Positions 8,248 through 64,000 of a stretch of 64,000 bases of DNA are shown in pieces. The notes below the pieces were generated by a model, which had not been told where the DNA came from, did not search any database, and saw only the letters and a program-made list of their open reading frames with translations. Position 1 is the first letter of the stretch, and each line of letters begins with the position of its first letter. A program made the position numbers and the translations under genes. Source of the stretch: an uncultured Chloroflexia bacterium (GTDB lineage Bacteria; Chloroflexota; Limnocylindria; Limnocylindrales; CSP1-4); contig CAWBLU010000001.1 of assembly GCA_963789725.1 (NCBI GenBank), positions 709,549 to 773,548 of the forward strand. Direction: 5' to 3'.

Positions 8248-9351
8248 ATGCCCCGCTATAGTCCAGCGGTGAACCTGCCGTTCAATCCGCCGATCGAGCC
8301 GATGCTGGCCAAACTGACCGAGGCAATTCCCGCCGGCGCCGGCTGGTTGTACGAGCCCAAGTGGGACGGCTTCCGGGCCCTGGTCTTCCGCGACGGCGAC
8401 GAGACGTTCATCCAGAGTCGCGACCTGAAGCCGCTCGACCGCTACTTCCCGGAGCTGCCGCCGGCGCTTCTGGCGGCCCTTCCGTCTCGCTGCGTCCTGG
8501 ATGGCGAAGTGGTGATAGCCGGACCCAACGGCCTGGACTTCGACTCCTTGCTGCTGCGAATCCACCCCGCGGCGTCGCGGGTCAAGATGCTGGCGGCCCA
8601 GACGCCCGCCAGCTACGTGGCCTGGGATCTACTGGCCCTCGATGACCGCGATCTGCGCGCAGTGCCGCAAGGGGAGCGGCGCGCGCTCCTGGAGCAGGTC
8701 CTGGCCGACGCTCCACCACCCGTGCATCTGACCCCATCGACAGCCGATGCGTCGGTCGCGGCCGACTGGTTCCATCGGTTCGAGGGCGCCGGCCTGGACG
8801 GCGTCGTCGCCAAACGGACGTCGGACCCGTATATGCCGGCCAAGCGTGGCTGGGCCAAGATCAAGCACGCCCGCACCGCCGATTGCGTCGTGGCCGGATT
8901 TCGGTGGCACAAGAACGGACCGGGCACCCTGGTCGGCTCTCTCCTGCTGGGGTTGTACGACGATACCGGCCGATTGAACCACGTCGGCATCACCGCCAGC
9001 TTCACCACGGATAAACGCCGCCAGCTGGTCGAGGAACTTGCCCCTTTGCGTGCAGAGGCCCTCCAGGGCCATCCCTGGGCGGAATGGGCCGAATGGGAGG
9101 CCGCCGCGCGCGCGTCGGGCCAGCGCATGCCGGGAGCGACCAGCCGCTGGAACCGCGGTCGCGATCTGACGTGGGAGCCGTTGCGCGCCGAGCGAGTCTG
9201 CGAGGTCGCCTACGACCATTTGCAGGGCGACCGCTTCCGCCACGCCACTACGTTCGTGCGCTGGCGCCCGGACAAGCGCCCGTCGGATTGCCGCTACGAT
9301 CAGCTGGAGTCGACCGCCCCGTTCGAACTGGCAGCGATCTTCGGGCGGTAG
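8248..9351 (+). CDS. ATP-dependent DNA ligase (LigC-type, adenylation + OB domains)
   Basis: Motif I EPKWDGFR (KxDGxR), DGEVV, WDLLALDD, DGVVAKR and WAKIK. 367 aa. Confidence 0.85.
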   Translation: MPRYSPAVNLPFNPPIEPMLAKLTEAIPAGAGWLYEPKWDGFRALVFRDGDETFIQSRDLKPLDRYFPELPPALLAALPSRCVLDGEVVIAGPNGLDFDSLLLRIHPAASRVKMLAAQTPASYVAWDLLALDDRDLRAVPQGERRALLEQVLADAPPPVHLTPSTADASVAADWFHRFEGAGLDGVVAKRTSDPYMPAKRGWAKIKHARTADCVVAGFRWHKNGPGTLVGSLLLGLYDDTGRLNHVGITASFTTDKRRQLVEELAPLRAEALQGHPWAEWAEWEAAARASGQRMPGATSRWNRGRDLTWEPLRAERVCEVAYDHLQGDRFRHATTFVRWRPDKRPSDCRYDQLESTAPFELAAIFGR

Positions 9352-9381: not shown

Positions 9382-10698
9382 TCAGCGGAACTGGCTCCAC
9401 GGGTCGTAGTCCACCTCGAGCGGCTCCTGCGGCGGCCGTTCCGCCTCGGGGACGTGCTCGAGGTTGACGCGGATCCGGTACCAGAGCTTGTAGCGGCCGC
9501 GCATGCCGTCGACCAGAACGTCTAGCGGGTCGAGGTAGCCGGCGACGGAGCCGTGGCGCTCCTTCCAGCTTTCGAAGCCGGCGAGCGCCTCCTCCTTGGT
9601 CGCCGCCCGCGCGATCTCGATGAGTGGCTTTGTCGAGATGCGCCGGCCGGTCGGGGAGCGGCCGGACTCGGCCCCACCGCCCGGCCCGGCCGCATCGGTC
9701 TTGCGTGCCCGCGACGGCATGACCCTGGGCGGCTCGCCCGGCGCCTTGGCGTAGTGCGGCGGCCACGGCGCGTCGCCCATGCCTTCCTTCTCCTGCCGAG
9801 CGGACAACTCCAGCAACTGGGCCAGCGAGCCAGCGGCCTCGTCGATTCCGGCGCCCGGATCGCCGACCCGCGCATACCGCGCCGGAACCGTTGCCAGCGT
9901 GAAATCACCCAGCTCGCATGAAGGCAACTCGTCCCAGGTCACCGGCGCCGAGACGCGCGCGTCCGGCACCGGCCGGACCGAGTAGGCCGAAGCCACGGTT
10001 CGGTCCTTGGCGTTCTGGTTGTAGTCGATGAAGACGCCGTGGCGCTCTTCCTTCCACCACTTGCTGGAAGCGATCGTCGGGGCGCGGCGCTCGATCTCGC
10101 GAGCCAGGGCGACGGCGGCGCGCCGGACCTGATCGAACGTCCAGCGCGGTTCGATACGAACGTTGATATGGATCCCGCGCGAGCCCGAGGTCTTGGGCCA
10201 GCCGACGAGCGAGTGGTCGGCCAGGACTTCGTGGGCCACCAGGGCCACGCGGCGGATGTCGTCCCAGGGCACGCCCGGCATCGGATCCAGGTCGACCCGC
10301 AGCTCGTCGGGGTGGTCGAGGTCGTCGGCGCGGATGGCGTGCGGGTTCAGGTCGATGCAACCGAGGTTCGCGACCCAGGCCAGTCCGGCGGCGTCGTCGA
10401 GGACGATCTCGTCGGCTGTTCGTCCGGACGGGAAGGACAGCTCCACGGTCCGCAGCCACTCCGGCCTGGACTCCGGGGCGCGTTTCTGGAAGAAGTACTC
10501 ACCGTCGGCGCCGTTCACGAAGCGCTTCATCGCCATCGGCCGGCGTCCGGCGCCGCGCAGGGCGCCATCGGCCACGGCCATGTAGTACGAGACGAGGTCG
10601 CGCTTGGTGTAGCCCGGTCCTGCGAAGAAGATCTTGTCCGGATTCGTGATCGAGACCTGCCGGCCCGCGACCTCTACGACTTCGCTTCGCGTTGGCAT
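9382..10698 (-). CDS. LigD-type NHEJ polymerase/primase domain protein with C-terminal extension
   Basis: GYTKRDLVSYY, WPKTSGSRGIHINV and FIDYNQN blocks typical of the LigD polymerase domain (archaeo-eukaryotic primase fold), about 300 aa. An extra ~130 aa C-terminal region of unknown function follows. Confidence 0.85.
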   Translation of the reverse strand: MPTRSEVVEVAGRQVSITNPDKIFFAGPGYTKRDLVSYYMAVADGALRGAGRRPMAMKRFVNGADGEYFFQKRAPESRPEWLRTVELSFPSGRTADEIVLDDAAGLAWVANLGCIDLNPHAIRADDLDHPDELRVDLDPMPGVPWDDIRRVALVAHEVLADHSLVGWPKTSGSRGIHINVRIEPRWTFDQVRRAAVALAREIERRAPTIASSKWWKEERHGVFIDYNQNAKDRTVASAYSVRPVPDARVSAPVTWDELPSCELGDFTLATVPARYARVGDPGAGIDEAAGSLAQLLELSARQEKEGMGDAPWPPHYAKAPGEPPRVMPSRARKTDAAGPGGGAESGRSPTGRRISTKPLIEIARAATKEEALAGFESWKERHGSVAGYLDPLDVLVDGMRGRYKLWYRIRVNLEHVPEAERPPQEPLEVDYDPWSQFR

Positions 10699-53328: not shown

Positions 53329-54156
53329 GTGGCGTCAGGTATGAGCCTACTAAGAGTCGCCCTCGTCCAGCTCGCTGCCGACCACGACGTGGCCGCGAAC
53401 ATCGACCGCGCCGCGGAACTGGTCCGGCAGGCGGGCGAGAGCAGGCCGGGGCTGATTTCGCTGCCCGAGGTGTTCCAGTACCGCGGCCCCGTGGCGGGCT
53501 TCCGCGAATCCGCGACCGGGCTGCCCGGCCCGATCACCGACCAATTCTCGGAGCTGGCACGCGGCCTGAACTGCTGGATCCTGCTCGGCAGCCTGGCCGA
53601 ACGATCGACAGACCCTCTGCGGCCTTACAACACGTCCGTCCTGCTGGACCCGGCCGGGCAGATCGCGGCCGTGTACCGCAAGCGTCATCTCTTCGACGTC
53701 GCCATCGAGAACGGGCCCTCGGATCGCGAGTCGGCCCGCATCACGCCCGGAGACTCGACCGTGATCGCGTCGATGGAGGGGCTAGGAGAGGGTCTGGACG
53801 TGCGCCTGGGACTGAGCATCTGCTTCGACGTGCGCTTCCCGGAGCTGTACCGCGAACTCGCCGCCGGTGGGGCCGTGGTGATGGCCGTCCCGGCCAACTT
53901 CACCGAGGCCACGGGCCGCGACCACTGGGAGGTTCTCCTGCGGGCCCGAGCAATCGAGAACGGATCGTTCGTGATCGCGCCGGCTCAGTGCGGCAGCGGC
54001 GGCGGCGTCCCCGCGCACGGCCGCAGCATGGTCGTGGATCCGTGGGGCATCGTCATTGCCCAGGCGCCGGACGGACCGGGCGTCATCGTCGCCGATCTGG
54101 ACCTCGATCGGGTAGCTTCAGTCCGTCGTCAGCTGCCGACCCAGCCCGCCGGTTGA
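53329..54156 (+). CDS. Carbon-nitrogen hydrolase (nitrilase superfamily)
   Basis: LRVALVQL...ISLPEVF...YRKRHLFD...LGLSICFDVRFPELYR...ENGSFVIAPAQCG, with the Glu-Lys-Cys triad context. Confidence 0.85.
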   Translation: MASGMSLLRVALVQLAADHDVAANIDRAAELVRQAGESRPGLISLPEVFQYRGPVAGFRESATGLPGPITDQFSELARGLNCWILLGSLAERSTDPLRPYNTSVLLDPAGQIAAVYRKRHLFDVAIENGPSDRESARITPGDSTVIASMEGLGEGLDVRLGLSICFDVRFPELYRELAAGGAVVMAVPANFTEATGRDHWEVLLRARAIENGSFVIAPAQCGSGGGVPAHGRSMVVDPWGIVIAQAPDGPGVIVADLDLDRVASVRRQLPTQPAG

Positions 54157-54206
54157 GGCTCAGGCCAGGGGGCCGGACCGAGCCATTCGAGCCCTCCGAG
54201 CCGAGA

Positions 54207-55052
54207 TCAGGCCGCTCCCCATCGCCGGGCGAGCGGAGAGTCTTCCGCGTGGCCGTCGTTCTGGTCGCTGGCGCCGTCCCCGCCATGCTCGGCGACTATC
54301 GTCAGCAGTTGCTCGCGATTGAGCAGCGCGAACGGGAACCGGGCCACGAGGGTGGGATTCGAGAGCGAGCCAACGGTCAGGTCCGTGATCGGCAGGAAGT
54401 GAGGATCGGGCGTTTCCAGGAACTGCGCCATCGACCCGTGGGCATGGACGTGGAGGCTGCCGCGGAGCTCGTAACCGGGGGTCACGATCGAGACTCGCAG
54501 CTGCTGCTTCCGGATCACGGGTGCCCCGGGTCGGCCCTGCGTAGCCGGGGCCCGTTCGGCGAGCATGACCACCTGGTCCAGGCGAACCCAGAGCGTGCCC
54601 CGTTGTTTGTCCGAACCGGGAGCTTCCGGCTGCCCGAGGTGGGATAGCGACGCGTCGCAGACCTGCAAGAACCCGGCTTGCATGTTTACCCAGTCCGAGA
54701 GGCGATCGAACTGCCCGGTACGGATCTGTCCCGAGATCTGGAATCCGTTGCCGAATATCTCAACTCCCACGGCGACGCCCTCGGACGCCGCGGCCTCACC
54801 GCCGAGCCAATCGTTGCCGCCCTGCGGAACCGGGGCGCCCAGGGTCCCCCACACAGGGTCGAACCCGGGCTGGGCGCCGCGCTCACCGATGAGGCGGCCC
54901 GCGTGCGGATCGCCCAGGCGGACATACGGGGCATAGCCGGTCGAGGCGTTCGCGTCGAAGCCCGATCCATAGTCCTGCTCCGGCGAATCGCCCTGGCGAA
55001 GGCCCCCGAGGAATCCCGGTCTTGCAACCATACGTCTGTCCGCGTGCCTCAA
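54207..55052 (-). CDS. Hypothetical protein, downstream of the two-component system
   Basis: Long ORF with coding-like composition and no family motifs recognised. The start is uncertain. Confidence 0.45.
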   Translation of the reverse strand: MRHADRRMVARPGFLGGLRQGDSPEQDYGSGFDANASTGYAPYVRLGDPHAGRLIGERGAQPGFDPVWGTLGAPVPQGGNDWLGGEAAASEGVAVGVEIFGNGFQISGQIRTGQFDRLSDWVNMQAGFLQVCDASLSHLGQPEAPGSDKQRGTLWVRLDQVVMLAERAPATQGRPGAPVIRKQQLRVSIVTPGYELRGSLHVHAHGSMAQFLETPDPHFLPITDLTVGSLSNPTLVARFPFALLNREQLLTIVAEHGGDGASDQNDGHAEDSPLARRWGAA

Positions 55053-55258
55053 CTGATGCCGTCGCGAGCACCTGCCGGAGGAGTCGGCAGATTGCCGTGG
55101 GGACTTAATCCGCCAAGGATGAGTGACAGCGCGGTCCGTGGCGTCGCATCATCCTGCGTCTCATGAGGTCGCCTGCCCATGGCCCAAGAGTGGACATGCA
55201 ATCTCCGTGCTCCGGCGTGGGTCCAACACCGCCGGCCTGCGACTTGGAGGGACGGACT

Positions 55259-56749
55259 TCAGCTGTCGTCGCCGGGCGGCTCGCCCGGAAGGGATAGCGT
55301 GAAGGCGGCGCCGTGGCCAGCTTGTGCCGGCTCGAGCCAGAGATCTCCGCTCATGGTCCGGAGCAACTGCCGCGACACATACAGGCCCAGGCCCGTGCCG
55401 TCGGCGCTCTCGTGACCCTCACCTCTGCTGAAACGGATGAATAGCCGCTCGCGGTCGCCCTCGGGGACGCCCGGCCCGTGGTCGACGATAGTGACGTGGA
55501 GGCGGTCGATGGTTTCGTCGGCCTGGATGTGGGCCTCGACTCTGCCACTGCGACCGCCGTACTTCACGGCGTTGTCGAGCAGCGCCCACAAGACCTGGTC
55601 CAGCTGGTCCGGGTCCGCCACGCCAAGCCAACCCGGAGCCCCGTCGTGCACCTCGAAGCGGGCATCGGCCGCGTTCAGGGCTTCCCACGCGCGCCGGATG
55701 CGCGGACCCAAGGCGATGACTTCCGCCTCGGGTCTCAGCACGCCCGCTTCCAGCCGCGTCACGGTCAGGAGCTGGCGCACGAGTCGCGTCAAGCGCTCGG
55801 TCTGCTCGGCCACGATTTGCAGGCGGCGGTCTCGGGCGGCTTCGTCCGATGCCGCTCGGAGCTGATCCACGTAGGCGCGAATACTGGTAAGGGGCGTTTG
55901 GAGGTTGTGGCTGACGCCGCGCAGGAACTCATCCTTGGCGGCGTCCAGTTCGAGCAGCCTCTCGTTCTGGTTCTCTATCTGCCCGAACAGTTCCGCATTC
56001 CTCAACGCAACGCCGACCTCACTGGCGAACAGGTCGAGCAGGTCCTGGTCTGCCCGCTCCCAACCACGAGTTGCGGGCAGATGCCCGCTGAGAACTCCGA
56101 GCGTCTCGCTGCCGGCCCGAAGCACGACACGCACGGGCCGTGGGTCTCCCGGGATCGCCTCCTCGACCGGAACGTCGACCGCGTCGACGAGCTGGAGCCG
56201 GCAATCGATCAGGCCGTAGATCGAACAGGCGTCGAATTCGGCTCGGGCCGTCAGGGCGGGAAGTCCCTGTGCCGGGTTGTACGTCGCGATCGCCCGAAGG
56301 AGCGACCCCAACTCGCGGTTGCGGCGCTGGGCGTCGGCGGCGATGCGGTTATGGCTCTCCGCCAGCCGGGCGAGCTCGTCGTCCCCGGTGATGTGGATCG
56401 GGGGGCCCGGTTCGCCCGCCGCGACCCTCTCGACCGCGGTCGTGATCCGGCGCAGCGGCACCGTCAGCCAGGAGACCGACATGGCTGCCGCGAGGAGGCC
56501 CAGGAAGGCAGCCGCGACGATCGACGCGATCAGGAGCGGGACCATCACGCCGGCGTCGGTGTACAGGCGCGCAGCGACGACGATGCCGCCGAAGACCGCC
56601 ACGGGGAGTACGGCGGCGGCGATGAGGCCGGTCGTGAGCAGGATGCGGAATGAAGGTCCGGTTCCCCCGGCTTCCCCGCGGGCGGGCTCGCCGTCGCGAC
56701 TCTTCCGCGGATCACGCATTTGCGGGGCTCGCGACGAGTCGATAGCCAA
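55259..56749 (-). CDS. Sensor histidine kinase (2 TM, HAMP, GAF-like, HisKA, HATPase_c)
   Basis: H-box FLRGVSHNLQTPLTSI, N box LLDNAVKYG, and G boxes DHGPGV and GTGLGL. Confidence 0.85.
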   Translation of the reverse strand: MAIDSSRAPQMRDPRKSRDGEPARGEAGGTGPSFRILLTTGLIAAAVLPVAVFGGIVVAARLYTDAGVMVPLLIASIVAAAFLGLLAAAMSVSWLTVPLRRITTAVERVAAGEPGPPIHITGDDELARLAESHNRIAADAQRRNRELGSLLRAIATYNPAQGLPALTARAEFDACSIYGLIDCRLQLVDAVDVPVEEAIPGDPRPVRVVLRAGSETLGVLSGHLPATRGWERADQDLLDLFASEVGVALRNAELFGQIENQNERLLELDAAKDEFLRGVSHNLQTPLTSIRAYVDQLRAASDEAARDRRLQIVAEQTERLTRLVRQLLTVTRLEAGVLRPEAEVIALGPRIRRAWEALNAADARFEVHDGAPGWLGVADPDQLDQVLWALLDNAVKYGGRSGRVEAHIQADETIDRLHVTIVDHGPGVPEGDRERLFIRFSRGEGHESADGTGLGLYVSRQLLRTMSGDLWLEPAQAGHGAAFTLSLPGEPPGDDS

Positions 56750-57419
56750 CGCCCCGGACGGTGATCAGATGGACCGGCCGGTCGGGGTCGACTTCGATCT
56801 TCTGGCGCAGCCGGCGCATCGACACCCAGACGTACGATGGCTCGGCCTCCTCGGTCTCGGTCCACCCCCGCGACAGAAGGGTCTCGGTTGGGACGATCTC
56901 CCCAAGGTTCGCAGCGAGCGGCTGGAGCAGGCGTGCCTCCGTCGGCGTCAGCTGGACTTCCTTGCCGGCGACAGTGGCCGACCGGCGATGCAGGTCCAGT
57001 GTGAGGTCCGGGCCAAGGACCACGGATCGGTGTGGGATCCGATCGCCAAGACGTCGCAAGACACGTTCTATTCGAGCCCTGAGCTCGGGGTAGTGATACG
57101 GCTTGGAGACGTAGTCCTCGGCCACTTCGTTTAGCAGGCGGGCCTTGCTGTCGGCCGTGTCGATGGCGGACAGGACGATAATCGGCAGGTCTGCCTCGGC
57201 TTTGATTCGTCGGGCCAGTGCCAGACCGTCGTAGCGAGGCATCGTCAGATCGAGCAGGATCAGGTCGGGCCAGCCAGCCTCGAGGCGGCGCACGGCCTCC
57301 GCGCCATCACGGGCGGTGGCCACTTCATAACCATCGTCCCGCAGCTGCTCGGACAGAACGACCAGCAGGCTGGGGTCGTCGTCCACGAGCAGGATCCTTC
57401 GCGGCCGTTGGTCCATCAT
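56712..57419 (-). CDS. Response regulator, OmpR/PhoB family
   Basis: ILLVDDDPSLL...DLILLDLTMP plus winged-helix LTPTEARLLQPL...VRGVGYRL. Overlaps the kinase start. Confidence 0.9.
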   Translation of the reverse strand: MMDQRPRRILLVDDDPSLLVVLSEQLRDDGYEVATARDGAEAVRRLEAGWPDLILLDLTMPRYDGLALARRIKAEADLPIIVLSAIDTADSKARLLNEVAEDYVSKPYHYPELRARIERVLRRLGDRIPHRSVVLGPDLTLDLHRRSATVAGKEVQLTPTEARLLQPLAANLGEIVPTETLLSRGWTETEEAEPSYVWVSMRRLRQKIEVDPDRPVHLITVRGVGYRLVASPANA

Positions 57420-57543
57420 CCCGCCGATATGCCTCCCCCGAGCACCACGCGGCGCGGGGCGGTCGGACCGAGTATAGGCCTGAGCCGGGGACCGGCGTGG
57501 GGTCGAGGATCGCGCGCGGCTCGCCGTCGGGCGGTCGGTCGCG

Positions 57544-58404
57544 CTAGTCTGCCGAGCGGTCGAAGTAACGGCAGCGCAGCGCGATCGGGCAATGCTCACA
57601 GTCGGGGCGTTGGGCGTGGCAGGTCCGGCGCCCGTGGCTGATGAGCGAGACGTGGGTCTCGTACATCTGGTCTGGGCGGAGCATCGCCAGGAAGTAGTCG
57701 TGGGCGGCGTCGGCCTCGACCTTCGGCGGTATCAGGCCGATCCGGTGGCTGACCCGGTGGACGTGCCGATCGACCGGCATCAGCGGCGTCCCGAAGCTGA
57801 AGAGAAGTACCACCGAAGCCGTCTTCTTGCCGATGCCGGGGATAGCGGCAAGCCAGTCGCGAGCCTCGAGTGGCGGCTTCGTCGCCAGGAAGTCCAGGGA
57901 GTATCCGCCGCCGTTGGTGGCGATTGCCTGTAGAGCGGCCTGGATGCGCGGTGCCTTCTGGTTGGCGAGCCCGCCCGGGCGGATTACGTCCGTCAACTCG
58001 GCTATGGGCGCCGCCTCAACCGCCGCCCAATTCGGCGCCGGCAGGTCGGGAAGGCCTACCCCACCCCAGCCCGGGAACTTTCGGGGTTCTGTCGAAGCGC
58101 CGTCCGGGGCTGGCGCGGAGGGATATGCGTCCCGAAGCGCGCCGAAGGCGACCTCGGCGTTGATGTCGGCGCTGTTGGCCGAGAGAATAGTCAGGATCAG
58201 CTCGCTGATGGGGTCGAGGCGTCGGTGCCACACCGGGCGGCCGTTGGCTTCCGCGAGCCGGTCCAGGACGAATTGGGTGAGGCCCGGCCGCTTCTTCTCG
58301 AGTTGCGCAGCCCAGCGCCGAGCCACCTGGTCCGGACTCGGTTTCGTCTTGTGCCGGGCCGTGGCTTTCCGGGCGGCCGCCGGGACCTTGCGAGCCGGCG
58401 TCAC
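57544..58404 (-). CDS. nth: Endonuclease III (HhH-GPD, [4Fe-4S]) with basic N-terminal extension
   Basis: HhH-GPD IPGIGKKTASVVLLF and cluster CHAQRPDCEHCPIALRC (C-X6-C-X2-C-X5-C). GTG 58404 overlaps the glycerate kinase stop (GTGA). Confidence 0.85.
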   Translation of the reverse strand: MTPARKVPAAARKATARHKTKPSPDQVARRWAAQLEKKRPGLTQFVLDRLAEANGRPVWHRRLDPISELILTILSANSADINAEVAFGALRDAYPSAPAPDGASTEPRKFPGWGGVGLPDLPAPNWAAVEAAPIAELTDVIRPGGLANQKAPRIQAALQAIATNGGGYSLDFLATKPPLEARDWLAAIPGIGKKTASVVLLFSFGTPLMPVDRHVHRVSHRIGLIPPKVEADAAHDYFLAMLRPDQMYETHVSLISHGRRTCHAQRPDCEHCPIALRCRYFDRSAD

Positions 58405-59591
58405 GCCACGGGCTCGCGCAGGTTCAGCCGGGCCGATCGCCGCCGCCCGACGAGCGTTCCTACCTGCACGATGCGGGCCAGTCTTTCGCCCGCGGCCGCA
58501 ACCAGGGGCCCGGCCTGGGCCATCGCGTCCTCCAGCGTCATAGGCTGGTCCGGAACCGGCACGGCCAGGGTTCCTATCGCCGCGAGTGCCTCGACGCCCT
58601 CCGGGGTGACGCCGCCGCCCATGGCCACGCACGGCACCCCGGCCGCGGCCGCGCGCCGCGCGACTCCGAGGGCCGTCTTGCCGTACGCGGTTTGCTCGTC
58701 GATCCGGCCCTCGCCCGTTATGACGAGGTCCGCGGTCGCCAGTCGCTCGTCGAAGTGGGTCTCCTCCATGACCACGTCAATGCCCGGCACCAGATCGAAA
58801 CGGCGCATCCGCGGAGCCAGGCACAGCAGCCCGAAGCTTGTACCTCCGGCCGCACCGGCGCCCGGAATGGCGCGGGCTCGAGTCCCCGACGCGGTCTCCA
58901 GCAGATCGGCGTAGTGCTCCAGCCATGTCTCCAGGGCGACGACATCTTCCGGCCATGCTCCCTTTTGCGGAGCGTAGACCGCGGCAGCGCCGCGCTCGCC
59001 GAGAAGAGGATTGGTCACGTCGCAGGCTATGCGCAACTCCAGTTCTCCCAGCCTGGGGTCCAGCGACGCCAGGTCCACGGCGGCAAGGTCCGGGATCGGC
59101 CCGGGCAGCCGGCCGCCGGTGCTGCCGCGGTACCAGACACCGAGGGCGTTGAGGAGTCCGGAGCCACCGTCCGTCGTGGCGCTGCCGCCCACGCCCATAA
59201 GGACATGCCGAACGCCCGCATCCAGGACGGCGACCAGTACCTCGCCCGTGCCCCCGGTCGTGGCCGCCAGCGGGCTGCGCGGCTCGCCCTCGGGCAGGCG
59301 CGACAATCCTGATGCCTCGGCCAGCTCCACGGCGGCGCGCTTCCCGTCGGCGGAGAGAAGCCAGCGGGCCGTGAGCGGGCGGCCCAGCGGGTCATGAGCG
59401 GGGCACTCCTGCCACTCCCAGCCGCCCGTTTCGGCGATTGCCGCCAGTGTGCCCTCCCCGCCATCCGCGAGAGGGGCCAGGATCAGTTCATCGTCCGGAC
59501 GGGCTCGAGACCAGCCGTCGGCCAGGGCTCTGGCCACGTCCACGGACGACAGCGACCCCTTGAATGAGTCCGGGGCAAGCAGAACGCGCAA
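58401..59591 (-). CDS. Glycerate kinase (GarK/GlxK family)
   Basis: N-terminus RVLLAPDSFKGSLSSVDVA matches the family's APDSFKGS signature. TTG at 59591; everything 5' of it in the ORF is Arg-rich junk. About 396 aa. Confidence 0.8.
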   Translation of the reverse strand: MRVLLAPDSFKGSLSSVDVARALADGWSRARPDDELILAPLADGGEGTLAAIAETGGWEWQECPAHDPLGRPLTARWLLSADGKRAAVELAEASGLSRLPEGEPRSPLAATTGGTGEVLVAVLDAGVRHVLMGVGGSATTDGGSGLLNALGVWYRGSTGGRLPGPIPDLAAVDLASLDPRLGELELRIACDVTNPLLGERGAAAVYAPQKGAWPEDVVALETWLEHYADLLETASGTRARAIPGAGAAGGTSFGLLCLAPRMRRFDLVPGIDVVMEETHFDERLATADLVITGEGRIDEQTAYGKTALGVARRAAAAGVPCVAMGGGVTPEGVEALAAIGTLAVPVPDQPMTLEDAMAQAGPLVAAAGERLARIVQVGTLVGRRRSARLNLREPVA

Positions 59592-59611
59592 CCGATCGTC
59601 GCGAGAGCCGC

Positions 59612-61657
59612 TCAAGACTCGACTCCGCCAGCCCCGGCCCCGAGCGGCGTGGCCTCGCCGTTCTCGACCGGATCGCCGGCGGCGCTCGATGCCGCGACGT
59701 CCGGCGGCGCCGCCGGACTGGCCGGCGCAACCCCGCCCTGCTCCGCGGCCCCCGCCATCCGGCGCCTCTCCAGATACTCGGGGATGCCGATCATCGGTGG
59801 TCGCTCGTGGTCCGCCAGTTCGATCACTTCCAGGCCCAGGCGACCCTGGCCCGATCGTGGCAGTTTCATGGTCGAACCCGCTTCGGCCAGGAGTGGAGTC
59901 TTGCCTCTCTCCTCCAGCCGTTTCATGACGGCCTGGAGGATGACGAAACTCATCCGCGACAGGCCCTCCAGCTCCTGGTTGCGGTGAACGCGCCGCTCCA
60001 GGTCCACCTGGCCCAGGCCCTCGAGGCCGACTCTGGCCGAGACGTCGATGAGGTGGCCGATCTCCACGGCATAGCTCGTGAAGAACGGGATCGTCTCGAG
60101 CAGGCTCCGGCGGCCCGCGTACTCTCCGGCAAGCGGCTGGATCAGGCCCGACAACTCGGGATAGAAGAGGTTGATCAGCGGCCTCGCCACGAGCTCCGTG
60201 ACGCGCCCGCCGCCGCCTTCCTTGAGGACGCCGCCTTCGACGATCGGCCGGCGGTAGTAGCCCTTGACGTACTGGATCCGTTCTTCGGCGATGAGCGGCC
60301 CGAGCGTGCCGTAGACCATCCGAGGATGCCAGTTGTGGACGTCCGTATCGGCCCACACGATCAGGTCGCCGCAGGTTTCATACAGGCTTTTCCAGAGCGC
60401 CTCGCCCTTGCCTCGATAAGTGCCGTAGCCCGGCAGCACCTGCGAATGCACCGCCACCCGAGCGCCCTCGGCCGCGGCGATCTCGCGAGTCCTGTCCTCC
60501 GAATCGGAGTCCATGACGAGCAGCTCGTCGATCAACGGGTGGCGCTCCATCAGGTCGCGCCGGGCCCGCCGGACGATGGCTCCGATCGTCGCAGCCTCGT
60601 TGAGCGCCGGCAGCACGAGGCTGACGGTCAGGCCGGCCTGCTCCTTGAGGCGGACCAACCTGTCGAGGTCGCTGAATTCGCGGTGATGGAAGTTGGATTC
60701 GCCGAACCAGCGCTCGACCCGAAGCGGTACCGCCCGGGAGTCGATGGCGGCTCTCTCCGCCGCGGCCAGGGTCTCGGCTGCGGCCTCGAGTCGATCGAAG
60801 GTCGCCTCGCCGATCGCCTCACGGGTCTTGACGACTACGACGGTGTTCTTGGACTTGGCCGCGATGGCCTCCGGCAGGGCCCCGAACAGGAACGTCTCTC
60901 CGCCGTCGATCGCGGGCGCGGCCGCGGCGCCCATGACCACCACGTCCGCCGTTTCCGCGGCCTTCATGATCGCGTTGCGGACGTTCGTGCCCTCGACGAC
61001 GGCCTGCTCGACGTGGCCGCTGGCGTGCTGGCGGATGAAGTGGGCCAGGGCCCGTTCGGACTGTCTGCGGATGCCCTCGGGAATCCCCGGTGGAACCACG
61101 TGAAGGGCTATTGCCTTGCCCCCACCGTGGCGGGCCATCGCGTCGGCGAAGTGGAGCGCCATCTCGGCGTGTGGACCGCCCCGGATCGGCACCAGAACGC
61201 GGCCCATCTCCGCGGTGCCGCCCTGCTTCACGACTGCGATGTCGCACGGTGGCTCGCGAACGACCTCGTCGATCGTGGAACTGAAGACCGGCGGCTGCGC
61301 GCCCGGCTTGGCCGCCGACGGCTTGCCGCCCCAGCCGAAGATGATCAGGTCGGCGTCCATCTCCGCGGCCGCCTCGACGACGCCTTCGGCCGCGCGACGC
61401 CCGATTCTTACGATTGGGTGGATCGTCACTCCCTCCGGAGTGAAGTCGAGGACGCGCTGCAGCAGACGCCGGGCGTGGCGCGCGCGGTTCGCTCCCTCCG
61501 AGAGAGGTGTGCCTTCCGGCACCTCCACGATGCCCAGGACGGTCAGGCTGCCATTCTTGCGGTCCATGACTGCCGATCCCAATCGGACCAGTTCCTGAGC
61601 GGTCAGCGGGTTAGCCACCGGGATCAGGATTCGGCAAGGCAGCGGTGCTCTGATCAC
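59612..61657 (-). CDS. Fusion protein: two tandem USP-like (adenine-nucleotide alpha-hydrolase) domains + GT81-type glucosyl/mannosyl-3-phosphoglycerate synthase (GpgS/MpgS-like) domain
   Basis: USP-like blocks ILIPVANPLTAQELVRLGS...DLIIFGWGG and RVLVPIRGGPHAEMALHFAD...VVVMGAAAAP. The C-terminal ~330 aa read LTVSLVLPALNEAATIG...LLVMDSDSEDRT...GKGEALWKS...GGGRVTELVARPLINLFYPELSGLIQPLAGEYAGRRSLL...VHRNQ, which I recall as GpgS-like. 681 aa. Confidence 0.75.
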   Translation of the reverse strand: MIRAPLPCRILIPVANPLTAQELVRLGSAVMDRKNGSLTVLGIVEVPEGTPLSEGANRARHARRLLQRVLDFTPEGVTIHPIVRIGRRAAEGVVEAAAEMDADLIIFGWGGKPSAAKPGAQPPVFSSTIDEVVREPPCDIAVVKQGGTAEMGRVLVPIRGGPHAEMALHFADAMARHGGGKAIALHVVPPGIPEGIRRQSERALAHFIRQHASGHVEQAVVEGTNVRNAIMKAAETADVVVMGAAAAPAIDGGETFLFGALPEAIAAKSKNTVVVVKTREAIGEATFDRLEAAAETLAAAERAAIDSRAVPLRVERWFGESNFHHREFSDLDRLVRLKEQAGLTVSLVLPALNEAATIGAIVRRARRDLMERHPLIDELLVMDSDSEDRTREIAAAEGARVAVHSQVLPGYGTYRGKGEALWKSLYETCGDLIVWADTDVHNWHPRMVYGTLGPLIAEERIQYVKGYYRRPIVEGGVLKEGGGGRVTELVARPLINLFYPELSGLIQPLAGEYAGRRSLLETIPFFTSYAVEIGHLIDVSARVGLEGLGQVDLERRVHRNQELEGLSRMSFVILQAVMKRLEERGKTPLLAEAGSTMKLPRSGQGRLGLEVIELADHERPPMIGIPEYLERRRMAGAAEQGGVAPASPAAPPDVAASSAAGDPVENGEATPLGAGAGGVES

Positions 61658-63069
61658 GGCGTCACCTCGGGGGCGGCGGGAGCCGCTTGTTCATGCCAGT
61701 GCTTGACGAGGTACGGCTTCAGGAGCTCGAACTCGCGCGCCTGACGTTCTACCCGCTCCTCGGCCTGTTCCCCGGACAGCCGGCGGTTCTCGATGATGAA
61801 AGCGCCGACTCGACCGAAATAGATCGGCACGAAGGCGGCGACGAGTCGCTCGAGTGTGAGGTTGCCGAAACTCGCGCTAACGAGCAGGTCGTAGAAGACC
61901 CTGGCCCACAGGTCGTCCGGGAAGTGGAAGGACGCGACGGAATCCGAGAGCTCGTCGGTGGATGGCAGGCCGCTCCGGCCGGCGGAGCCCTCGCCGGACT
62001 CGGCGTCGATGCCGAGCCTGTGGGCCGCGGCCTCGGCCAGCTTCCCGGCCTCCTCGGCGAGGAGCATGACGTTCTCGTAGTTGCCCTGGCGGAGCATCTG
62101 CTGCCACGTGTCGCACATGGTCAGAGAGCCGGCGTGGAACTGCGCCAGCAGCCGCAGCGTGTTGACCTCGAGCGGGGGCGGGTCGGCGTACCGCTCGAAG
62201 CCGTAGACCGGAACCTCGCGACTGCCCACGATCGGCAGCCAGCGCTCGGCATTGTCGCGAGCCATCGTCAGCAGGGTCCCGACGACCTGGCGGAACATCG
62301 GACCGAGGTCCGAGCCGGGGTCCTTGGGGTCGTGGATCTTGGTCCCGAGGCGGGTCTGGCAGACGGCGAAGCCGCCGGTCAGGGCCGTCGTGGTCATCCA
62401 GATGTCAATGCCGAAGCGCGAAACGTCGTCGGTCCAGCCCTCCTGGGCGAGGTAGTGGCGGATCAGGTCCCCGCTGACGCCGAAGTCGCCGCCGATGGGC
62501 TGGCGGATTCGGTGCCCATAGAGAGCTCGCGTGACAGGGTAGGTGACCGTGTTCGTGATCGTGCCGTCGTACTTGTGGCGCGCGTACAGAGGCGCCACGT
62601 AGTCGTAGCCGCCCTTGAGGATCGGGCCGGCCAGGAGTTCGATCCATTCCGGCACGATCGATCGGAGGTCGGAGTCGACGACGACCAGAGCCTCGACCTC
62701 CAGGGCAGCCGCCATCTCGAAGAGCGTTCTGAGGGCGGCGCCCTTGCCACCGATGCCGTCGACCTCGGGGTAGGTCAGGCTGACGCGCTGGAGGCGGTTC
62801 GTCGGGCGGACGAGCAGGATCTCCTCGACGTACCCCGGCGGTTCGGTTTCGACGACGACTCGCTGCGTGCCGTCCGGCGAGCCCGCGTCGGCGTTCACCA
62901 GGATCGGGCGCAGGTCGGGGAAGTACTGGACCAGGCCGGCCTGAGCGGCCCGAACGACGTGGCCTATCGTTGCCGCGTTCCGATAACTCGGTATGCCGAC
63001 CATGATGTCGGCGCAACCGAGCCGAGCGATCTCGTCCTTGATTGCGGGGGTAAGGGCGCTCGACGGCAT
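61654..63069 (-). CDS. GT78-like glycosyltransferase resembling mannosylglycerate/glucosylglycerate synthase (single-step, glycerate acceptor)
   Basis: From ATG 63069: IMVGIPSYRNAATIGHVVRAA...GKGAALRTLF...VVDSDLRSIVPEWI...QPIGGDFGVSGDL...FGIDIWMTTTAL. These align by eye with blocks I recall from Rhodothermus-type MGS: GKGDGMNTAL, YDADITSFGPDWI, QPLGGELLM and WGIDTLYTFV. The 5' 440 bp of the ORF are Ser/Arg-rich junk. Confidence 0.6.
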   Translation of the reverse strand: MPSSALTPAIKDEIARLGCADIMVGIPSYRNAATIGHVVRAAQAGLVQYFPDLRPILVNADAGSPDGTQRVVVETEPPGYVEEILLVRPTNRLQRVSLTYPEVDGIGGKGAALRTLFEMAAALEVEALVVVDSDLRSIVPEWIELLAGPILKGGYDYVAPLYARHKYDGTITNTVTYPVTRALYGHRIRQPIGGDFGVSGDLIRHYLAQEGWTDDVSRFGIDIWMTTTALTGGFAVCQTRLGTKIHDPKDPGSDLGPMFRQVVGTLLTMARDNAERWLPIVGSREVPVYGFERYADPPPLEVNTLRLLAQFHAGSLTMCDTWQQMLRQGNYENVMLLAEEAGKLAEAAAHRLGIDAESGEGSAGRSGLPSTDELSDSVASFHFPDDLWARVFYDLLVSASFGNLTLERLVAAFVPIYFGRVGAFIIENRRLSGEQAEERVERQAREFELLKPYLVKHWHEQAAPAAPEVTP

Positions 63070-63196
63070 CACGGGCACCGTACCACGTCGGGGGCTTTCC
63101 GGGGCATCCTGCGGCGCAGTTCCAGCCGGGCATCCATTAGCCCGCCGTTGGCCATCGGCGTCCTGCCGAGGCGACACGTTGGTCGATCGGGGACGT

Positions 63197-63886
63197 CTAC
63201 TTTGGCGGCATCGGCAGGATGGACCAGTCGTCGTTCCTCGAGTTGGGAACGTAGCGGCTGTTCGCGGCCTTGTACACCAGCGCCCCGAAGCCGGCGCTGC
63301 GCCAGGTGGTGATGAAGCTGCCGATCGGCGGCCTGACGAACGGCGTGATCCGGACGAGGTCGCCCGGCTCGAGCGCACCGTCGAGGAGCCGCTTGCGCTC
63401 CAGCAGGGGAAGGTCGAGCAGCCGCGAGCCGTCGATCGACAGGAGGTCGACGGCGACGAACGCGATGGGTCGATCAGGATCGAGCCGGCGTTCCGGAGCC
63501 GCCATTCGGGCAACGCGGCTGCCGACCAGGAACTGGGTCATCATCTGGCCGGTCGTCGGAGCGGCGGGCTCCTGGACCGTCGTCCCTTCGGTGGGCTGGG
63601 TCGGCTCGACCGTGAGGAATCCGTCGAGAATCAACTCGCCCGCCAGCGCAGACGAGGCGATCGCGGCTGCGACCTCGGCGAACTCGGCGGTGCAGTCGAC
63701 CCCTTCTTCGTCGACGAGTGTCGCTGCCGCGCCGTCGTAGCGGACGAGGACGCGGACTCCGCCCCACCTGGGCTCGATGACCGCGTCGCGCGTCCGGCTC
63801 CCGCCGCGACCGCAGCGTTGCGGTCGCCAATCGGCCGGATCGCTCGGCGGCTGCGGCGGCGGTGGATGTCGGCGGAAGATCGGCAT
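63197..63886 (-). CDS. ATP-dependent-ligase-like adenylation domain protein with degenerate motif I (possible inactive ligase homolog), no OB domain
   Basis: IEPRWGGVRVLV aligns to the ligase motif I EPKWDGFRALV but with the catalytic K changed to R and D to G. Motif-like blocks follow: LDGFL, VDLLSIDGSRLLDLPLLERKRLL and GALVYK. About 229 aa. Confidence 0.45.
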   Translation of the reverse strand: MPIFRRHPPPPQPPSDPADWRPQRCGRGGSRTRDAVIEPRWGGVRVLVRYDGAAATLVDEEGVDCTAEFAEVAAAIASSALAGELILDGFLTVEPTQPTEGTTVQEPAAPTTGQMMTQFLVGSRVARMAAPERRLDPDRPIAFVAVDLLSIDGSRLLDLPLLERKRLLDGALEPGDLVRITPFVRPPIGSFITTWRSAGFGALVYKAANSRYVPNSRNDDWSILPMPPK

Positions 63887-63910
63887 GGTGGAACCTGACT
63901 TCGATCGTGG

Positions 63911-64000
63911 CTAGTCGCGGTAGCCGGCGGGGTTGGCATGGCGCCACGCCCACGCGGAGCCGATCATCTCTTCGATACCGCTCCGGCGCGGCCGCCACCC
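63911..64000 (-). CDS. 3' end of an unidentified gene running off the window
   Basis: Minus-strand frame ...SGIEEMIGSAWAWRHANPAGYRD* with stop TAG at 63913..63911. Too short to assign. Confidence 0.2.
   Translation of the reverse strand, partial: GWRPRRSGIEEMIGSAWAWRHANPAGYRD

What the first reader, a model, noticed from the sequence alone, without database searches (positions are those of the whole stretch)
63197..63886. Ligase-like adenylation-domain gene with catalytic lysine replaced (KxDG to RWGG) heading the solute operon
The 229-aa product aligns block-for-block with the N-terminal nucleotidyltransferase domain of the LigC-type ligase elsewhere in this window: EPRWGGVRVLV vs EPKWDGFRALV, then DG..., VDLLSIDG and LERKRLL. 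It lacks the OB domain, and the essential lysine and aspartate of motif I are changed. Either it is an inactivated ligase relic, or a repurposed nucleotide-binding module. Either way it sits in an odd place, directly upstream of glycosyltransferase genes.
Basis: seen in the sequence. Interest (0 to 1): 0.55.

Follow-up and report, generated by a model that had tools for sequence, protein, structure and literature searches.

The report
Conserved dead DNA-ligase domain protein
This gene encodes a stand-alone copy of the nucleotide-handling domain of a DNA ligase that has lost almost every catalytic residue, yet selection has kept it intact in hundreds of Limnocylindria (Chloroflexota) genomes, so it is a repurposed non-enzyme of unknown role rather than a decaying relic.

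Summary
Window 63197..63886 (-) encodes a 229-aa protein. It matches the ATP-dependent DNA ligase nucleotidyltransferase (NTase) domain above Pfam's threshold, folds like one, has no OB domain, and reads E-P-R-W-G-G-V-R where ligases read E-P-K-W-D-G-x-R.

It is not a relic. About 230-aa intact orthologues occur in 495 species-level genomes. The 80 fetched and every hit that carries a source name are Limnocylindria/Chloroflexota, apart from one 2.9-kb contig labelled Actinomycetes. dN/dS is about 0.2.

Across 271 members the motif I lysine position is A/L/F/S/V. The motif I Asp, motif III Glu, motif IV Glu and both motif V lysines are also lost, and no lysine is invariant. The family is therefore a pseudo-ligase. 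An intact nucleotide pocket is doubtful.

The gene lies next to the two glycosyltransferase genes, glycerate kinase and an HhH-GPD glycosylase in about 75 of 80 loci. The link is probably not functional:
- The first glycosyltransferase gene has its own conserved leaderless-type promoter element.
- Most orthologues of the ligase-like gene have one too.
- One genome keeps the gene without the glycosyltransferases.
- A sister clade places it before glutamate dehydrogenase and a DinG-like helicase.

My best guess at its role is a non-catalytic DNA- or partner-binding protein; this is an inference. I found no description of the family in the literature searched, and source databases label its members as ligases.

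The parts
63197..63886 (-). Coding sequence of the ligase-like protein ('LIGL'), 229 aa plus stop. It is a stand-alone NTase domain with no OB domain.
   Evidence: ORF list. PF01068 39.8 bits, above the gathering score of 26.2. AF2 pLDDT 81.8 with a ligase fold. GC3 0.86. An identical protein lies on a 939,697-bp contig.
63752..63775 (-). Motif I remnant, residues 38-45: E-P-R-W-G-G-V-R. Ligases read E-P-K-W-D-G-x-R.
   Evidence: Alignments. Over 271 family members the Lys position is A110/L50/F24/S21/V12/R8/H8/G7/D7, the Asp position varies, and W, G and R are kept in at least 262.
63611..63631 (-). Motif III remnant, residues 86-92: I-L-D-G-F-L-T. The Asp-Gly pair is kept; the ribose-contacting Glu is replaced by Phe.
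   Evidence: the Glu position is V119/Y81/F31/I22 in the family and E in all six reference ligases.
63500..63589 (-). Residues 100-129, a low-confidence loop between motifs III and IIIa. It contains the conserved P110, G113 and G122.
   Evidence: pLDDT below 50 for residues 100-129. Conserved positions are listed.
63428..63466 (-). Motif IIIa region, residues 141-153: I-A-F-V-A-V-D-L-L-S-I-D-G. The Asp is kept; the aromatic residue before it is Val here.
   Evidence: for the alignment to LigD and LigC; the position is V135/F85/I26 in the family and F or W in the references.
63383..63409 (-). Family hallmark P-L-L-E-R-K-R-L-L, residues 160-168.
   Evidence: P160, L161, L162, E163, R164, K165, R166 and L168 are invariant in the two alignments of close homologues, and L167 is at least 90% conserved. 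E163, R164, R166 and L168 stay invariant in the 42 diverse representatives. This pattern found 495 relatives in species genomes.
63212..63292 (-). Motif IV and V remnants, residues 199-225: G-F-G-A-L-V-Y-K-A-A-N-S-R-Y-V-P-N-S-R-N-D-D-W-S-I-L-P. The motif IV Lys (K206) and motif V Trp are kept; the motif IV Glu and both motif V lysines are lost.
   Evidence: motif IV Glu position R/T/K/G; K206 is K245/R21; motif V Lys1 is V/I/L (K in 24); Lys2 is D/P/R.
63913..64000 (-). 3' end of the upstream gene, UDP-glucose 4-epimerase GalE. It runs off the window and stops 24 nt before the LIGL start.
   Evidence: Locus L001 carries the identical LIGL protein, with a 336-aa epimerase ending 24 nt upstream. 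That protein scores GalE TIGR01179 345 bits against a cut-off of 262.
63077..63086 (-). GTGGTACGGT, an extended -10-like element 7 nt upstream of the first glycosyltransferase gene's ATG. I infer it is a promoter for a leaderless mRNA.
   Evidence: It occurs once in the window. TGGTA[CG]GGT is found at the same spacing in 73 of 79 loci, while the rest of the intergenic region is not conserved. TAnnnT-N6/7-start occurs at 6 of 32 real-frame ORFs in the window, against 0.5% of all ATG/GTG.
61654..63069 (-). First downstream gene, 471 aa: a distant paralogue of glucosyl-3-phosphoglycerate synthase. It starts 127 nt after the LIGL stop.
   Evidence: The start is fixed by the conserved N-terminus MPSSALTPAIKDEIARLG. 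NF010496 55 bits, Pfam GT2 only weak. Adjacent to LIGL in about 75 of 80 loci.
59612..61657 (-). Fusion of universal stress protein domains with glucosyl-3-phosphoglycerate synthase (GpgS).
   Evidence: PF00582 and PF00535. NF010496 368 bits against a cut-off of 262.
58401..59615 (-). Glycerate kinase (start approximate).
   Evidence: PF02595 401 bits. TIGR00045 366 bits.
57544..58400 (-). HhH-GPD DNA glycosylase, DR2438-like (start approximate). It is the last gene of the conserved string.
   Evidence: PF00730 and PF00633. NF053634 168 bits, below its cut-off of 400. Present downstream of the glycerate kinase in 66 of the 70 loci that extend more than 6.5 kb beyond LIGL.
8248..9351 (+). The genuine LigC-type ATP-dependent DNA ligase used for comparison. 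It has NTase and OB domains and an intact KWDG motif, and sits beside a Prim-Pol gene at 9382..10698 (-).
   Evidence: PF01068 123.8 bits and PF04679 43.4 bits. PRK08224 506 bits against a cut-off of 296; the neighbour scores 204 bits on the LigD polymerase domain model.

Best explanation
The gene encodes a pseudo-ligase. It is a stand-alone paralogue of the LigD/LigC-type ATP-dependent DNA ligase NTase domain that keeps the fold but has lost the chemistry.

Shown by the analyses here:
- It is a real gene under purifying selection.
- Every relative that could be placed taxonomically is from Limnocylindria (Chloroflexota), apart from one short, probably misbinned contig.
- Family-wide it lacks the motif I lysine nucleophile and Asp, the motif III Glu, the motif IV Glu, both motif V lysines and the whole OB domain with motif VI.
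- No lysine is invariant in the family.

Inferred from established ligase mechanism: it cannot form a lysyl-AMP adduct or seal nicks.

Inferred, lower confidence: it works by binding rather than catalysis. It most likely acts as a non-catalytic DNA-end or nick-binding protein, or as a partner-binding accessory in DNA repair. Hydrophobic residues occupy the former nucleotide-pocket positions.

Inferred from conserved -10-like elements: in most genomes it is transcribed from its own leaderless-type promoter, and the glucosylglycerate genes downstream have theirs. The adjacency is therefore mainly conserved gene order, not a shared function. In this particular genome the gene's own -10 element is degenerate, so it may be read through from galE.
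For: Homology and fold:
- PF01068 above threshold.
- hhalign 97.7%, E 2.4e-12, against the in-window LigC.
- PDB profile search: best matches are the mycobacterial LigD ligase domain entries 6nhx/6nhz and 1vs0 (E 1e-17 to 2e-17), together with an archaeal DNA ligase, 4eq5 (E 1.8e-17).
- AF2 model pLDDT 81.8, with Foldseek top hits all ATP-dependent DNA ligases.

Real gene under selection:
- 686 close homologues of about 228 aa.
- 1060 representatives at E<=1e-3 in the 50%-clustered library.
- 495 species genomes.
- Intact ORFs of about 220-240 aa in 65 of 79 complete loci.
- dN/dS 0.085-0.41 over 19 independent pairs.
- GC3 0.86.

Loss of catalytic residues: the frequency table over 271 members against six genuine ligases, and the alignments. 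Residue roles are taken from the review PMC7470946: the motif I Lys is adenylated; adenine is sandwiched between the motif IIIa aromatic and a motif IV aliphatic residue; the motif IV Lys contacts N1; the motif I Arg and motif III Glu contact the ribose; a motif V Lys contacts the alpha-phosphate; OB motif VI is needed for step 1.

Independent transcription:
- TAnnnT then 5-8 nt (6 nt in most, typically TAGAAT) then the start codon, before LIGL in 76 of 83 loci. Background is 0.35% of random positions.
- GTGGTA[CG]GGT then 7 nt then the start codon, before the first glycosyltransferase gene in 73 of 79 loci.
- The same architecture occurs at 6 of 32 genes in the window, including LigC and Prim-Pol.

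Decoupling from the glycosyltransferases:
- L071 has LIGL, glycerate kinase and HhH-GPD with no glycosyltransferase between them.
- The 206-211-aa clade sits between Band7 and glutamate dehydrogenase plus a DinG-like helicase.

Weak hint of a DNA-repair link: a DNA-repair gene closes both kinds of gene string (HhH-GPD glycosylase in 66 of 70 loci; DinG-like exonuclease-helicase in the other clade). The genome also has a LigC/Prim-Pol pair.
Against: - No direct evidence for DNA or partner binding.
- The protein is acidic (pI 5.6, family median 5.7), which is not what a simple DNA-binding protein usually looks like. The NTase part of the genuine LigC is similar, at 5.8.
- The motif I Arg (R in 262 of 271) and motif IV Lys (K in 245 of 271), both nucleoside-contacting in ligases, are retained. 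Residual nucleoside binding is therefore not excluded.
- Adjacency to the glycosyltransferase genes on the same strand holds down to 41% identity, and in two members of the divergent second clade (LIGL 32-33% identical to the window protein). That is more persistent than the position of galE, so a functional link to the solute genes cannot be dismissed.
- The promoter reading rests on sequence motifs only. There are no transcription start data, and the window's own gene lacks the TAnnnT element.
Confidence: 0.6

Rival explanations
1. It is a nucleotide- or nucleotide-sugar-binding regulatory or accessory subunit of the glucosylglycerate pathway. On this reading the former AMP pocket senses ATP/AMP or an NDP-sugar and modulates the downstream GpgS-type glycosyltransferases. 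This is the first reader's 'repurposed nucleotide-binding module heading the solute operon'.
For: - Same-strand adjacency to the two glycosyltransferase genes and glycerate kinase in about 75 of 80 loci, down to 41% identity, and in two members of the divergent second clade, L087 and L089 (LIGL 32-33% identical to the window protein).
- galE, which supplies a UDP-sugar, lies immediately upstream in close relatives.
- The motif I Arg and motif IV Lys, both nucleoside contacts, are retained.
Against: - The residues that bind phosphate, metal and ribose are all lost. In the main clade the adenine-stacking aromatic is lost too.
- A separately conserved promoter-like element sits before the first glycosyltransferase gene, and another before LIGL.
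- L071 keeps LIGL but has no glycosyltransferase genes at the locus.
- A whole subclade sits before glutamate dehydrogenase and DinG instead.
- LIGL evolves much faster than the enzymes it would regulate: 41-73% identity against 60-93% for the first glycosyltransferase and 60-86% for Usp-GpgS.
Confidence: 0.12
2. It is an inactivated ligase relic, that is, a pseudogene or a gene drifting towards loss after the catalytic lysine mutated.
For: - Catalytic residues are missing.
- It is the least conserved gene of its neighbourhood.
- The window's copy lacks the -10 element that its orthologues have.
Against: - Intact ORFs of similar length occur across 80 fetched loci, out of 495 species genomes that matched.
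- dN/dS has a median of about 0.23.
- Thirty columns are invariant in 107 sequences and thirteen in 42 diverse representatives, including family-specific ones such as PLLERKRLL, W195, N209 and Y212.
- The lysine is absent in essentially every lineage, so the loss is ancient and the gene has been kept since.
Confidence: 0.02
3. It is still an enzyme: a non-canonical nucleotidyltransferase or ligase. It would use another nucleophile, or act with an OB domain or second subunit supplied in trans.
For: - The fold is intact with high model confidence outside one loop.
- K206 (motif IV) and the ER[KR]R helix are strongly conserved.
- A few members have Lys at the motif I position (L032, L037, L040, P0121).
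Against: - No lysine column is invariant. K206 is Arg in 21 of 271 members, and K165 is Arg in the second clade.
- The acidic metal ligands of motifs I, III and IV and the phosphate-binding lysines of motif V are all gone.
- Members that do have Lys at the motif I position still lack the Asp two residues later.
- No OB-only gene is seen in the conserved neighbourhood.
Confidence: 0.04

Closest known systems
Ligase domain of bacterial LigD (M. tuberculosis Rv0938, PDB 1VS0, 6NHX/6NHZ) and the stand-alone LigC ligases (NCBIfam PRK08224)
   Same: - Among the best sequence and structure matches.
- Same NTase fold and the same order of motifs I, III, IIIa, IV and V.
- Shared features typical of the LigD/LigC type: E-P-x-W-x-G-x-R, L-D-G, D-L-L-x-x-D-G, E-R-R/K-x-L-L, S-R-Y-x-P-G and W at motif V.
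   Different: - No OB domain or motif VI.
- No motif I Lys or Asp, no motif III Glu, no motif IV Glu, no motif V lysines.
- Scores 46-55 bits against cut-offs of 228-296 for these families.
- It cannot be a ligase by the known mechanism.
Minimal ATP-dependent DNA ligases (Lig E, Chlorella virus ligase): NTase plus OB only
   Same: A reduced ligase scaffold without accessory DNA-binding domains. The NTase core is the same.
   Different: The minimal ligases keep the OB domain and all catalytic motifs and are active enzymes (review PMC7470946). This protein is smaller still, NTase only, and catalytically dead.
Pseudoenzymes in general (for example pseudokinases): conserved, catalytically dead paralogues of enzymes that act as scaffolds, sensors or regulators
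   Same: It is homologous to an enzyme family, its catalytic residues are systematically replaced, and it is maintained by purifying selection.
   Different: I found no description of a pseudoenzyme branch of the ATP-dependent DNA ligase NTase domain in the literature searched. That is absence of evidence in an incomplete library.
Glucosylglycerate / mannosylglucosylglycerate gene clusters (GpgS with a second glycosyltransferase, as in Rhodopirellula or Petrotoga; GpgS of mycobacterial MGLP synthesis)
   Same: The downstream genes include a bona fide GpgS (368 bits), a second GpgS-like glycosyltransferase and glycerate kinase.
   Different: The titles and abstracts returned by the glucosylglycerate search do not mention a ligase-like gene in such clusters; I did not read those papers in full. 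Here the ligase-like gene has separate promoter signals and occurs without the glycosyltransferases in some genomes.

Membership tests
ATP-dependent DNA ligase (covalent nucleotidyltransferase superfamily) | NTase (adenylation) domain: sequence and fold | tested here: met
   PF01068 39.8 bits, above 26.2. hhalign 97.7%. Foldseek E 3e-12 to ligase structures.
ATP-dependent DNA ligase (covalent nucleotidyltransferase superfamily) | Motif I KxDGxR, with the lysine that becomes adenylated | tested here: not met
   The window protein has R40 and G42. In the family the Lys position is A/L/F/S/V and others, and the Asp position varies.
ATP-dependent DNA ligase (covalent nucleotidyltransferase superfamily) | Acidic residues of motif III (DGE) and motif IV (EGxxxK) that contact the ribose and metal | tested here: not met
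   The motif III Glu is F here and V/Y/F/I in the family. The motif IV Glu is G here and R/T/K/G in the family. The motif III Asp-Gly and the motif IV Lys are kept.
ATP-dependent DNA ligase (covalent nucleotidyltransferase superfamily) | Motif V lysines (W/L-x-K-x-K) that contact the AMP phosphate | tested here: not met
   The window protein reads W-S-I-L-P. In the family Lys1 is V/I/L and Lys2 is D/P/R.
ATP-dependent DNA ligase (covalent nucleotidyltransferase superfamily) | C-terminal OB domain with motif VI | tested here: not met
   The protein ends at residue 229, 8 residues after the motif V Trp. There is no PF04679 hit, whereas the in-window LigC has one.
ATP-dependent DNA ligase (covalent nucleotidyltransferase superfamily) | Self-adenylylation and nick sealing | not testable with these tools
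   This needs biochemistry. The residue losses predict a negative result.
LigC (NCBIfam PRK08224) / LigD ligase domain (TIGR02779) | Score at or above the curated family cut-off | tested here: not met
   46.2 bits against 296, and 54.6 bits against 227.75. The genuine LigC in the window scores 506 bits.
Pseudoenzyme (catalytically dead, conserved paralogue of an enzyme) | Catalytic residues absent across the family, not just in one sequence | tested here: met
   271 members were tabulated. No lysine column is invariant.
Pseudoenzyme (catalytically dead, conserved paralogue of an enzyme) | Maintained by purifying selection | tested here: met
   dN/dS 0.085-0.41 in 19 pairs. Intact ORFs in nearly all of the 80 fetched loci, out of 495 species genomes that matched.
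Glucosylglycerate (GpgS) operon component | Conserved same-strand adjacency to the GpgS genes | tested here: met
   About 75 of 80 loci, plus L087 and L089.
Glucosylglycerate (GpgS) operon component | Co-transcription with, and co-occurrence dependent on, the GpgS genes | tested here: inconclusive
   A separate -10-like element precedes the first glycosyltransferase gene in 73 of 79 loci. L071 and the 206-aa clade keep LIGL without adjacent glycosyltransferases. No transcript data are available.

The most novel reading that the evidence does not exclude
The dead ligase domain is a dedicated damage-recognition or recruitment subunit of a base-excision or strand-break repair route specific to Limnocylindria. 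It would bind nicks, 5'-phosphate or 5'-adenylated ends without sealing them. It would then hand them to the LigC/Prim-Pol pair, or to the HhH-GPD glycosylase or DinG-like helicase that closes its gene string. That would be the first non-catalytic 'reader' derived from a DNA ligase. A variant reading is that it couples DNA-damage sensing to the stress-solute (glucosylglycerate) genes next door.
Probability: 0.15. Interest if true: 0.65.

Novelty: new variant of a known kind. Interest (0 to 1): 0.45.

Why it matters
- It is a rare example of a pseudoenzyme in the covalent nucleotidyltransferase (ligase and capping enzyme) superfamily. The family is stand-alone, lacks the lysine and the OB domain, and is conserved across an abundant but uncultured bacterial class of soil and freshwater.
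- Source databases label its members 'ATP-dependent DNA ligase' or 'LigD'. That inflates apparent NHEJ or ligase capacity in metabolic reconstructions of Limnocylindria.
- If the protein binds broken DNA or a repair partner, it would show how a ligase fold can be reused as a reader. If instead it binds a nucleotide and controls glucosylglycerate synthesis, it would be a new kind of regulator.
- The conserved leaderless-type promoter motifs found along the way also give usable start-site predictions for this uncultured lineage.

Tried and rejected
- Rfam scans of window 54000-64000 and of the 340-nt gap upstream of LIGL in L005 found nothing above chance.
- The generic sigma-70 and terminator scan of 61500-64000 found no promoter. 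The single terminator-like site lies inside the coding sequence and matches chance expectation. The lineage-specific TAnnnT analysis was more informative.
- PADLOC defence models and PHROGs phage families gave no hit.
- The viral contig scan found no relative.
- The AlphaFold-database fold library was unavailable.
- Literature searches for lysine-less or inactive ligase-like proteins and for Limnocylindria with glucosylglycerate found nothing relevant.
- I looked for informative domain fusions among 150 representatives. The longer 'fusions' (P0215, P0227, P0229, P0237) are frameshift read-throughs into an alternative frame of the neighbouring glycosyltransferase gene, not real architectures.
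- The 198-aa versions of the protein in databases are start-codon miscalls. The full N-terminus is encoded upstream.
- Net charge gave no support for simple DNA binding (pI 5.6).
- I considered that the gene might be a spurious high-GC ORF. This is rejected by GC3, conservation and dN/dS.
Full report
**1. The observation**

The ORF at 63197..63886 on the minus strand exists, starts with ATG and encodes 229 aa. Its third-position GC content is 0.86, the same as neighbouring genes. The overlapping plus-strand shadow ORF has 0.69.

The product matches Pfam's ATP-dependent DNA ligase adenylation domain PF01068 above the gathering score: 39.8 bits against 26.2, E 5e-10, residues 33-221. In NCBIfam the best matches are the LigD ligase domain and LigC models, but far below their cut-offs: 54.6 against 227.75, and 46.2 against 296.

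The ligase 'elsewhere in this window' is at 8248..9351 (+). It is a genuine LigC: PF01068 plus PF04679, and PRK08224 at 506 bits. It lies next to a Prim-Pol gene.

BLASTP between the two proteins is weak: 24% identity over 185 residues, E 0.01.

An AlphaFold model built on 107 homologues has pLDDT 81.8 and pTM 0.77, with one disordered loop at residues 100-129. Its best PDB matches are archaeal and eukaryotic ATP-dependent DNA ligases and the M. tuberculosis LigD ligase domain, at E 3e-12 to 1e-10 and query TM-score 0.60-0.65. The profile search of PDB sequences agrees.

The protein stops 8 residues after the motif V tryptophan and has no OB domain.

**2. It is a family, not an accident**

- The 90%-clustered protein collection holds 686 homologues. 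The best 120 are nearly all 227-233 aa and 57-78% identical.
- The exhaustive 50%-clustered library holds 1060 representatives at E<=1e-3 and 160 at E<=1e-10. Most of the full-length ones are 200-250 aa.
- A scan of one genome per species found 495 genomes with a relative. Of the 80 fetched, 79 are Chloroflexota or Limnocylindria MAGs. The other is a 2.9-kb contig labelled Actinomycetes, probably misbinned.
- All hits that carry a source name say Limnocylindria, Limnocylindrales or Chloroflexota.
- In 65 of 79 complete loci the ORF is 220-240 aa.
- Shorter 198-aa database entries are start-codon miscalls.
- dN/dS (Nei-Gojobori) for 19 non-overlapping pairs is 0.085-0.41, median about 0.23.

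The 'relic' reading is therefore rejected.

**3. What has been lost and what has been kept**

I aligned 271 members with six genuine ligases and tabulated the canonical positions.

| Position | Window protein | Family (271 members) |
|---|---|---|
| Motif I Lys | R | A110, L50, F24, S21, V12, R8, H8, G7, D7 |
| Motif I Asp | G | Q/E/S/G/P/D and others |
| Motif III Glu | F | V119, Y81, F31, I22 |
| Motif IIIa aromatic | V | V135, F85, I26 |
| Motif IV Glu | G | R/T/K/G |
| Motif V Lys1 | I | V/I/L (K in 24) |
| Motif V Lys2 | P | D/P/R |

Kept in at least 245 of 271 members are W41, G43 and R45 (motif I), D88 and G89 (motif III), D147 (motif IIIa), K206 (motif IV; Arg in 21) and W221 (motif V). 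Family-specific residues are also invariant in the 107 close homologues, namely P-L-L-E-R-K-R-x-L, W195, N209, Y212 and P214; R211 is at least 90% conserved there.

A few members happen to carry Lys at the motif I position, but never with the Asp. No lysine column is invariant across both clades.

The residue roles come from the review PMC7470946:
- The motif I Lys is the adenylated nucleophile.
- OB motif VI is needed for step 1.
- Adenine is sandwiched between the motif IIIa aromatic and a motif IV aliphatic residue.
- The motif IV Lys contacts N1.
- The motif I Arg and motif III Glu hold the ribose.
- A motif V Lys holds the alpha-phosphate.
- Motif I, III and IV residues organise the catalytic metal.

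From these roles I infer that the protein cannot self-adenylylate or ligate. Only two of the usual nucleoside contacts survive, and aliphatic or aromatic residues mostly occupy the positions of the lost motif I Lys, motif III Glu and first motif V Lys. An intact nucleotide pocket is doubtful. I could not verify this on coordinates.

**4. Genomic context**

In the window the order on the minus strand is:
- galE (3' end at 63913, 24 nt upstream of the LIGL start)
- LIGL
- a 127-nt gap
- a 471-aa distant GpgS paralogue (61654..63069)
- a Usp-GpgS fusion (368 bits against a cut-off of 262)
- glycerate kinase
- an HhH-GPD DNA glycosylase
- a two-component system

The string from LIGL through both glycosyltransferases and glycerate kinase is on one strand in about 75 of 80 loci, even where LIGL is only 41-48% identical. 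The glycosylase follows in 66 of the 70 loci that extend more than 6.5 kb beyond LIGL. Two members of a more distant clade, L087 and L089, keep the same order.

LIGL is the fastest-evolving gene of the set: 41-73% identity, against 60-93% for the first glycosyltransferase.

**5. Evidence against a functional tie to the glycosyltransferases**

(a) Promoter-like elements.
- The intergenic region before the first glycosyltransferase gene is not conserved, except for GTGGTA[CG]GGT placed 7 nt before the start codon. This is present in 73 of 79 loci, including the window at 63077..63086.
- LIGL itself is preceded by TAnnnT (typically TAGAAT), then 5-8 nt (6 nt in most), then the start codon, in 76 of 83 loci. 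Background is 0.35% of random positions.
- In the window the same TAnnnT-N6/7-start arrangement precedes 6 of 32 real-frame ORFs, against 0.5% of all ATG/GTG. These include LigC and Prim-Pol.
- By analogy with the leaderless mRNAs common in Actinobacteria and Deinococcus (general knowledge), I read these as -10 boxes of leaderless transcripts. LIGL and the solute genes would then each have their own promoter. This is an inference without transcript data.
- The window's own LIGL has TCAGGT in place of TAGAAT, so here it may depend on read-through from galE.

(b) Locus L071, a lake MAG, has LIGL followed directly by glycerate kinase and the glycosylase. There are no glycosyltransferase genes between them.

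(c) A 206-211-aa subclade, also from Limnocylindria, lies in a different conserved setting: ECF sigma factor, NfeD, Band7, LIGL, glutamate dehydrogenase (16-21 nt downstream, with a Shine-Dalgarno sequence), then a DinG-like exonuclease-helicase.

**6. Mechanism**

Shown: this is a conserved, catalytically dead ligase NTase domain.

Inferred: it acts by binding. The most economical guess is that it retains a ligase-like interaction with broken DNA or with a repair partner. The support for this is limited:
- Both kinds of gene string end in a DNA-repair gene.
- The genome has a LigC/Prim-Pol module.
- The nearest relatives are repair ligases.

This is weak. The protein is acidic (pI 5.6), and nothing here tests binding.

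The main rival is a nucleotide or nucleotide-sugar sensor for the GpgS pathway. The persistent adjacency and the retained Arg and Lys keep it alive. The pocket losses, the separate promoters and the natural decoupling cases weaken it.

A cryptic enzyme with another nucleophile is unlikely, because no lysine is invariant and the metal and phosphate ligands are gone.

**7. Comparison with known families, and novelty**

The protein belongs to the ATP-dependent DNA ligase NTase superfamily by fold and sequence. It fails every catalytic membership criterion, so it should not be called a DNA ligase, LigC or LigD, although several source databases do so.

No defence-system, phage or RNA-family signal was found. 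I found no description of such a lysine-less stand-alone family in the literature searched.

I rate it a new variant of a known kind: a pseudoenzyme branch of the ligase NTase domain. Interest is moderate. It is solidly real and class-wide, but its function is unknown and no striking mechanism is yet in view.

Noticed in passing
window 63077-63086 (-); loci L002-L086 at the same position relative to the first glycosyltransferase gene's start: GTGGTA[CG]GGT lies exactly 7 nt upstream of the start codon of the first glycosyltransferase gene in 73 of 79 loci, while the rest of the intergenic region is unconserved. It looks like an extended -10 box for a leaderless mRNA.
   Followed up: yes
loci L002-L086, immediately upstream of the LIGL start; window 63887-63912: TAGAAT-like TAnnnT lies 5-8 nt (6 nt in most) before the LIGL ATG in 76 of 83 loci. 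The window's own copy has TCAGGT instead and sits only 24 nt after the galE stop, so its expression may differ from that of its orthologues.
   Followed up: partly
window 8269, 10698, 14296, 39853, 44080, 63069: TAnnnT-N6/7-start precedes 6 of 32 real-frame ORFs in the window, against 0.5% of all ATG/GTG. This suggests leaderless transcription is common in this organism. It also suggests the LigC start is GTG 8269 rather than ATG 8248.
   Followed up: partly
window 8248-9351 (+) and 9382-10698 (-): A bona fide LigC (PRK08224, 506 bits) lies convergent with (tail to tail against) a Prim-Pol / LigD-polymerase-domain gene (204 bits). This is the pair known from mycobacterial excision repair.
   Followed up: partly
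window 57544-58632 (-): An HhH-GPD DNA glycosylase (DR2438-like, 168 bits, below its cut-off) follows the glycerate kinase gene. It is conserved there in 66 of 70 loci, so a DNA-repair gene is embedded in a sugar-metabolism string.
   Followed up: partly
window 61654-63069 (-): The first gene after LIGL is a 471-aa protein with no precomputed Pfam hit in its homologues' records. It is only distantly GpgS-like (55 bits) yet more conserved (60-93% identity) than its neighbours. It may be the second glycosyltransferase of a di-glycosyl-glycerate pathway.
   Followed up: no
protein P0251 (327 aa): A ligase homologue with NTase and OB domains also lacks the motif I Lys (YELDWGGVR) and the motif V lysines (WLEMP) but keeps LDGE. 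It is a second, possibly intermediate, lysine-less lineage.
   Followed up: no
L088 9001-13641; L090; L091: In a 206-211-aa subclade the ligase-like gene is followed 16-21 nt later by glutamate dehydrogenase with an AAGGAG ribosome-binding site, and then by a DinG-like RNase T-helicase fusion. This is probably one operon.
   Followed up: partly
L030, intergenic region between LIGL and the first glycosyltransferase gene: The spacer is expanded by about three tandem copies of a unit of roughly 47 nt (GGGCACGCC[AC]TCGACTGG[AG]CAGCAGGCGCGCCGGCCGGCAAGCCTCA) that other loci lack.
   Followed up: no
proteins P0215, P0227, P0229, P0237: Database 'proteins' of 344-472 aa that begin like LIGL continue in an alternative reading frame of the neighbouring glycosyltransferase gene. 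They are gene-calling artefacts of high-GC, error-containing contigs.
   Followed up: yes
window 5696-7009 (-): A NiFe hydrogenase large-subunit-like gene (sulfhydrogenase alpha, 268 bits, below its cut-off) lies near the LigC locus.
   Followed up: no
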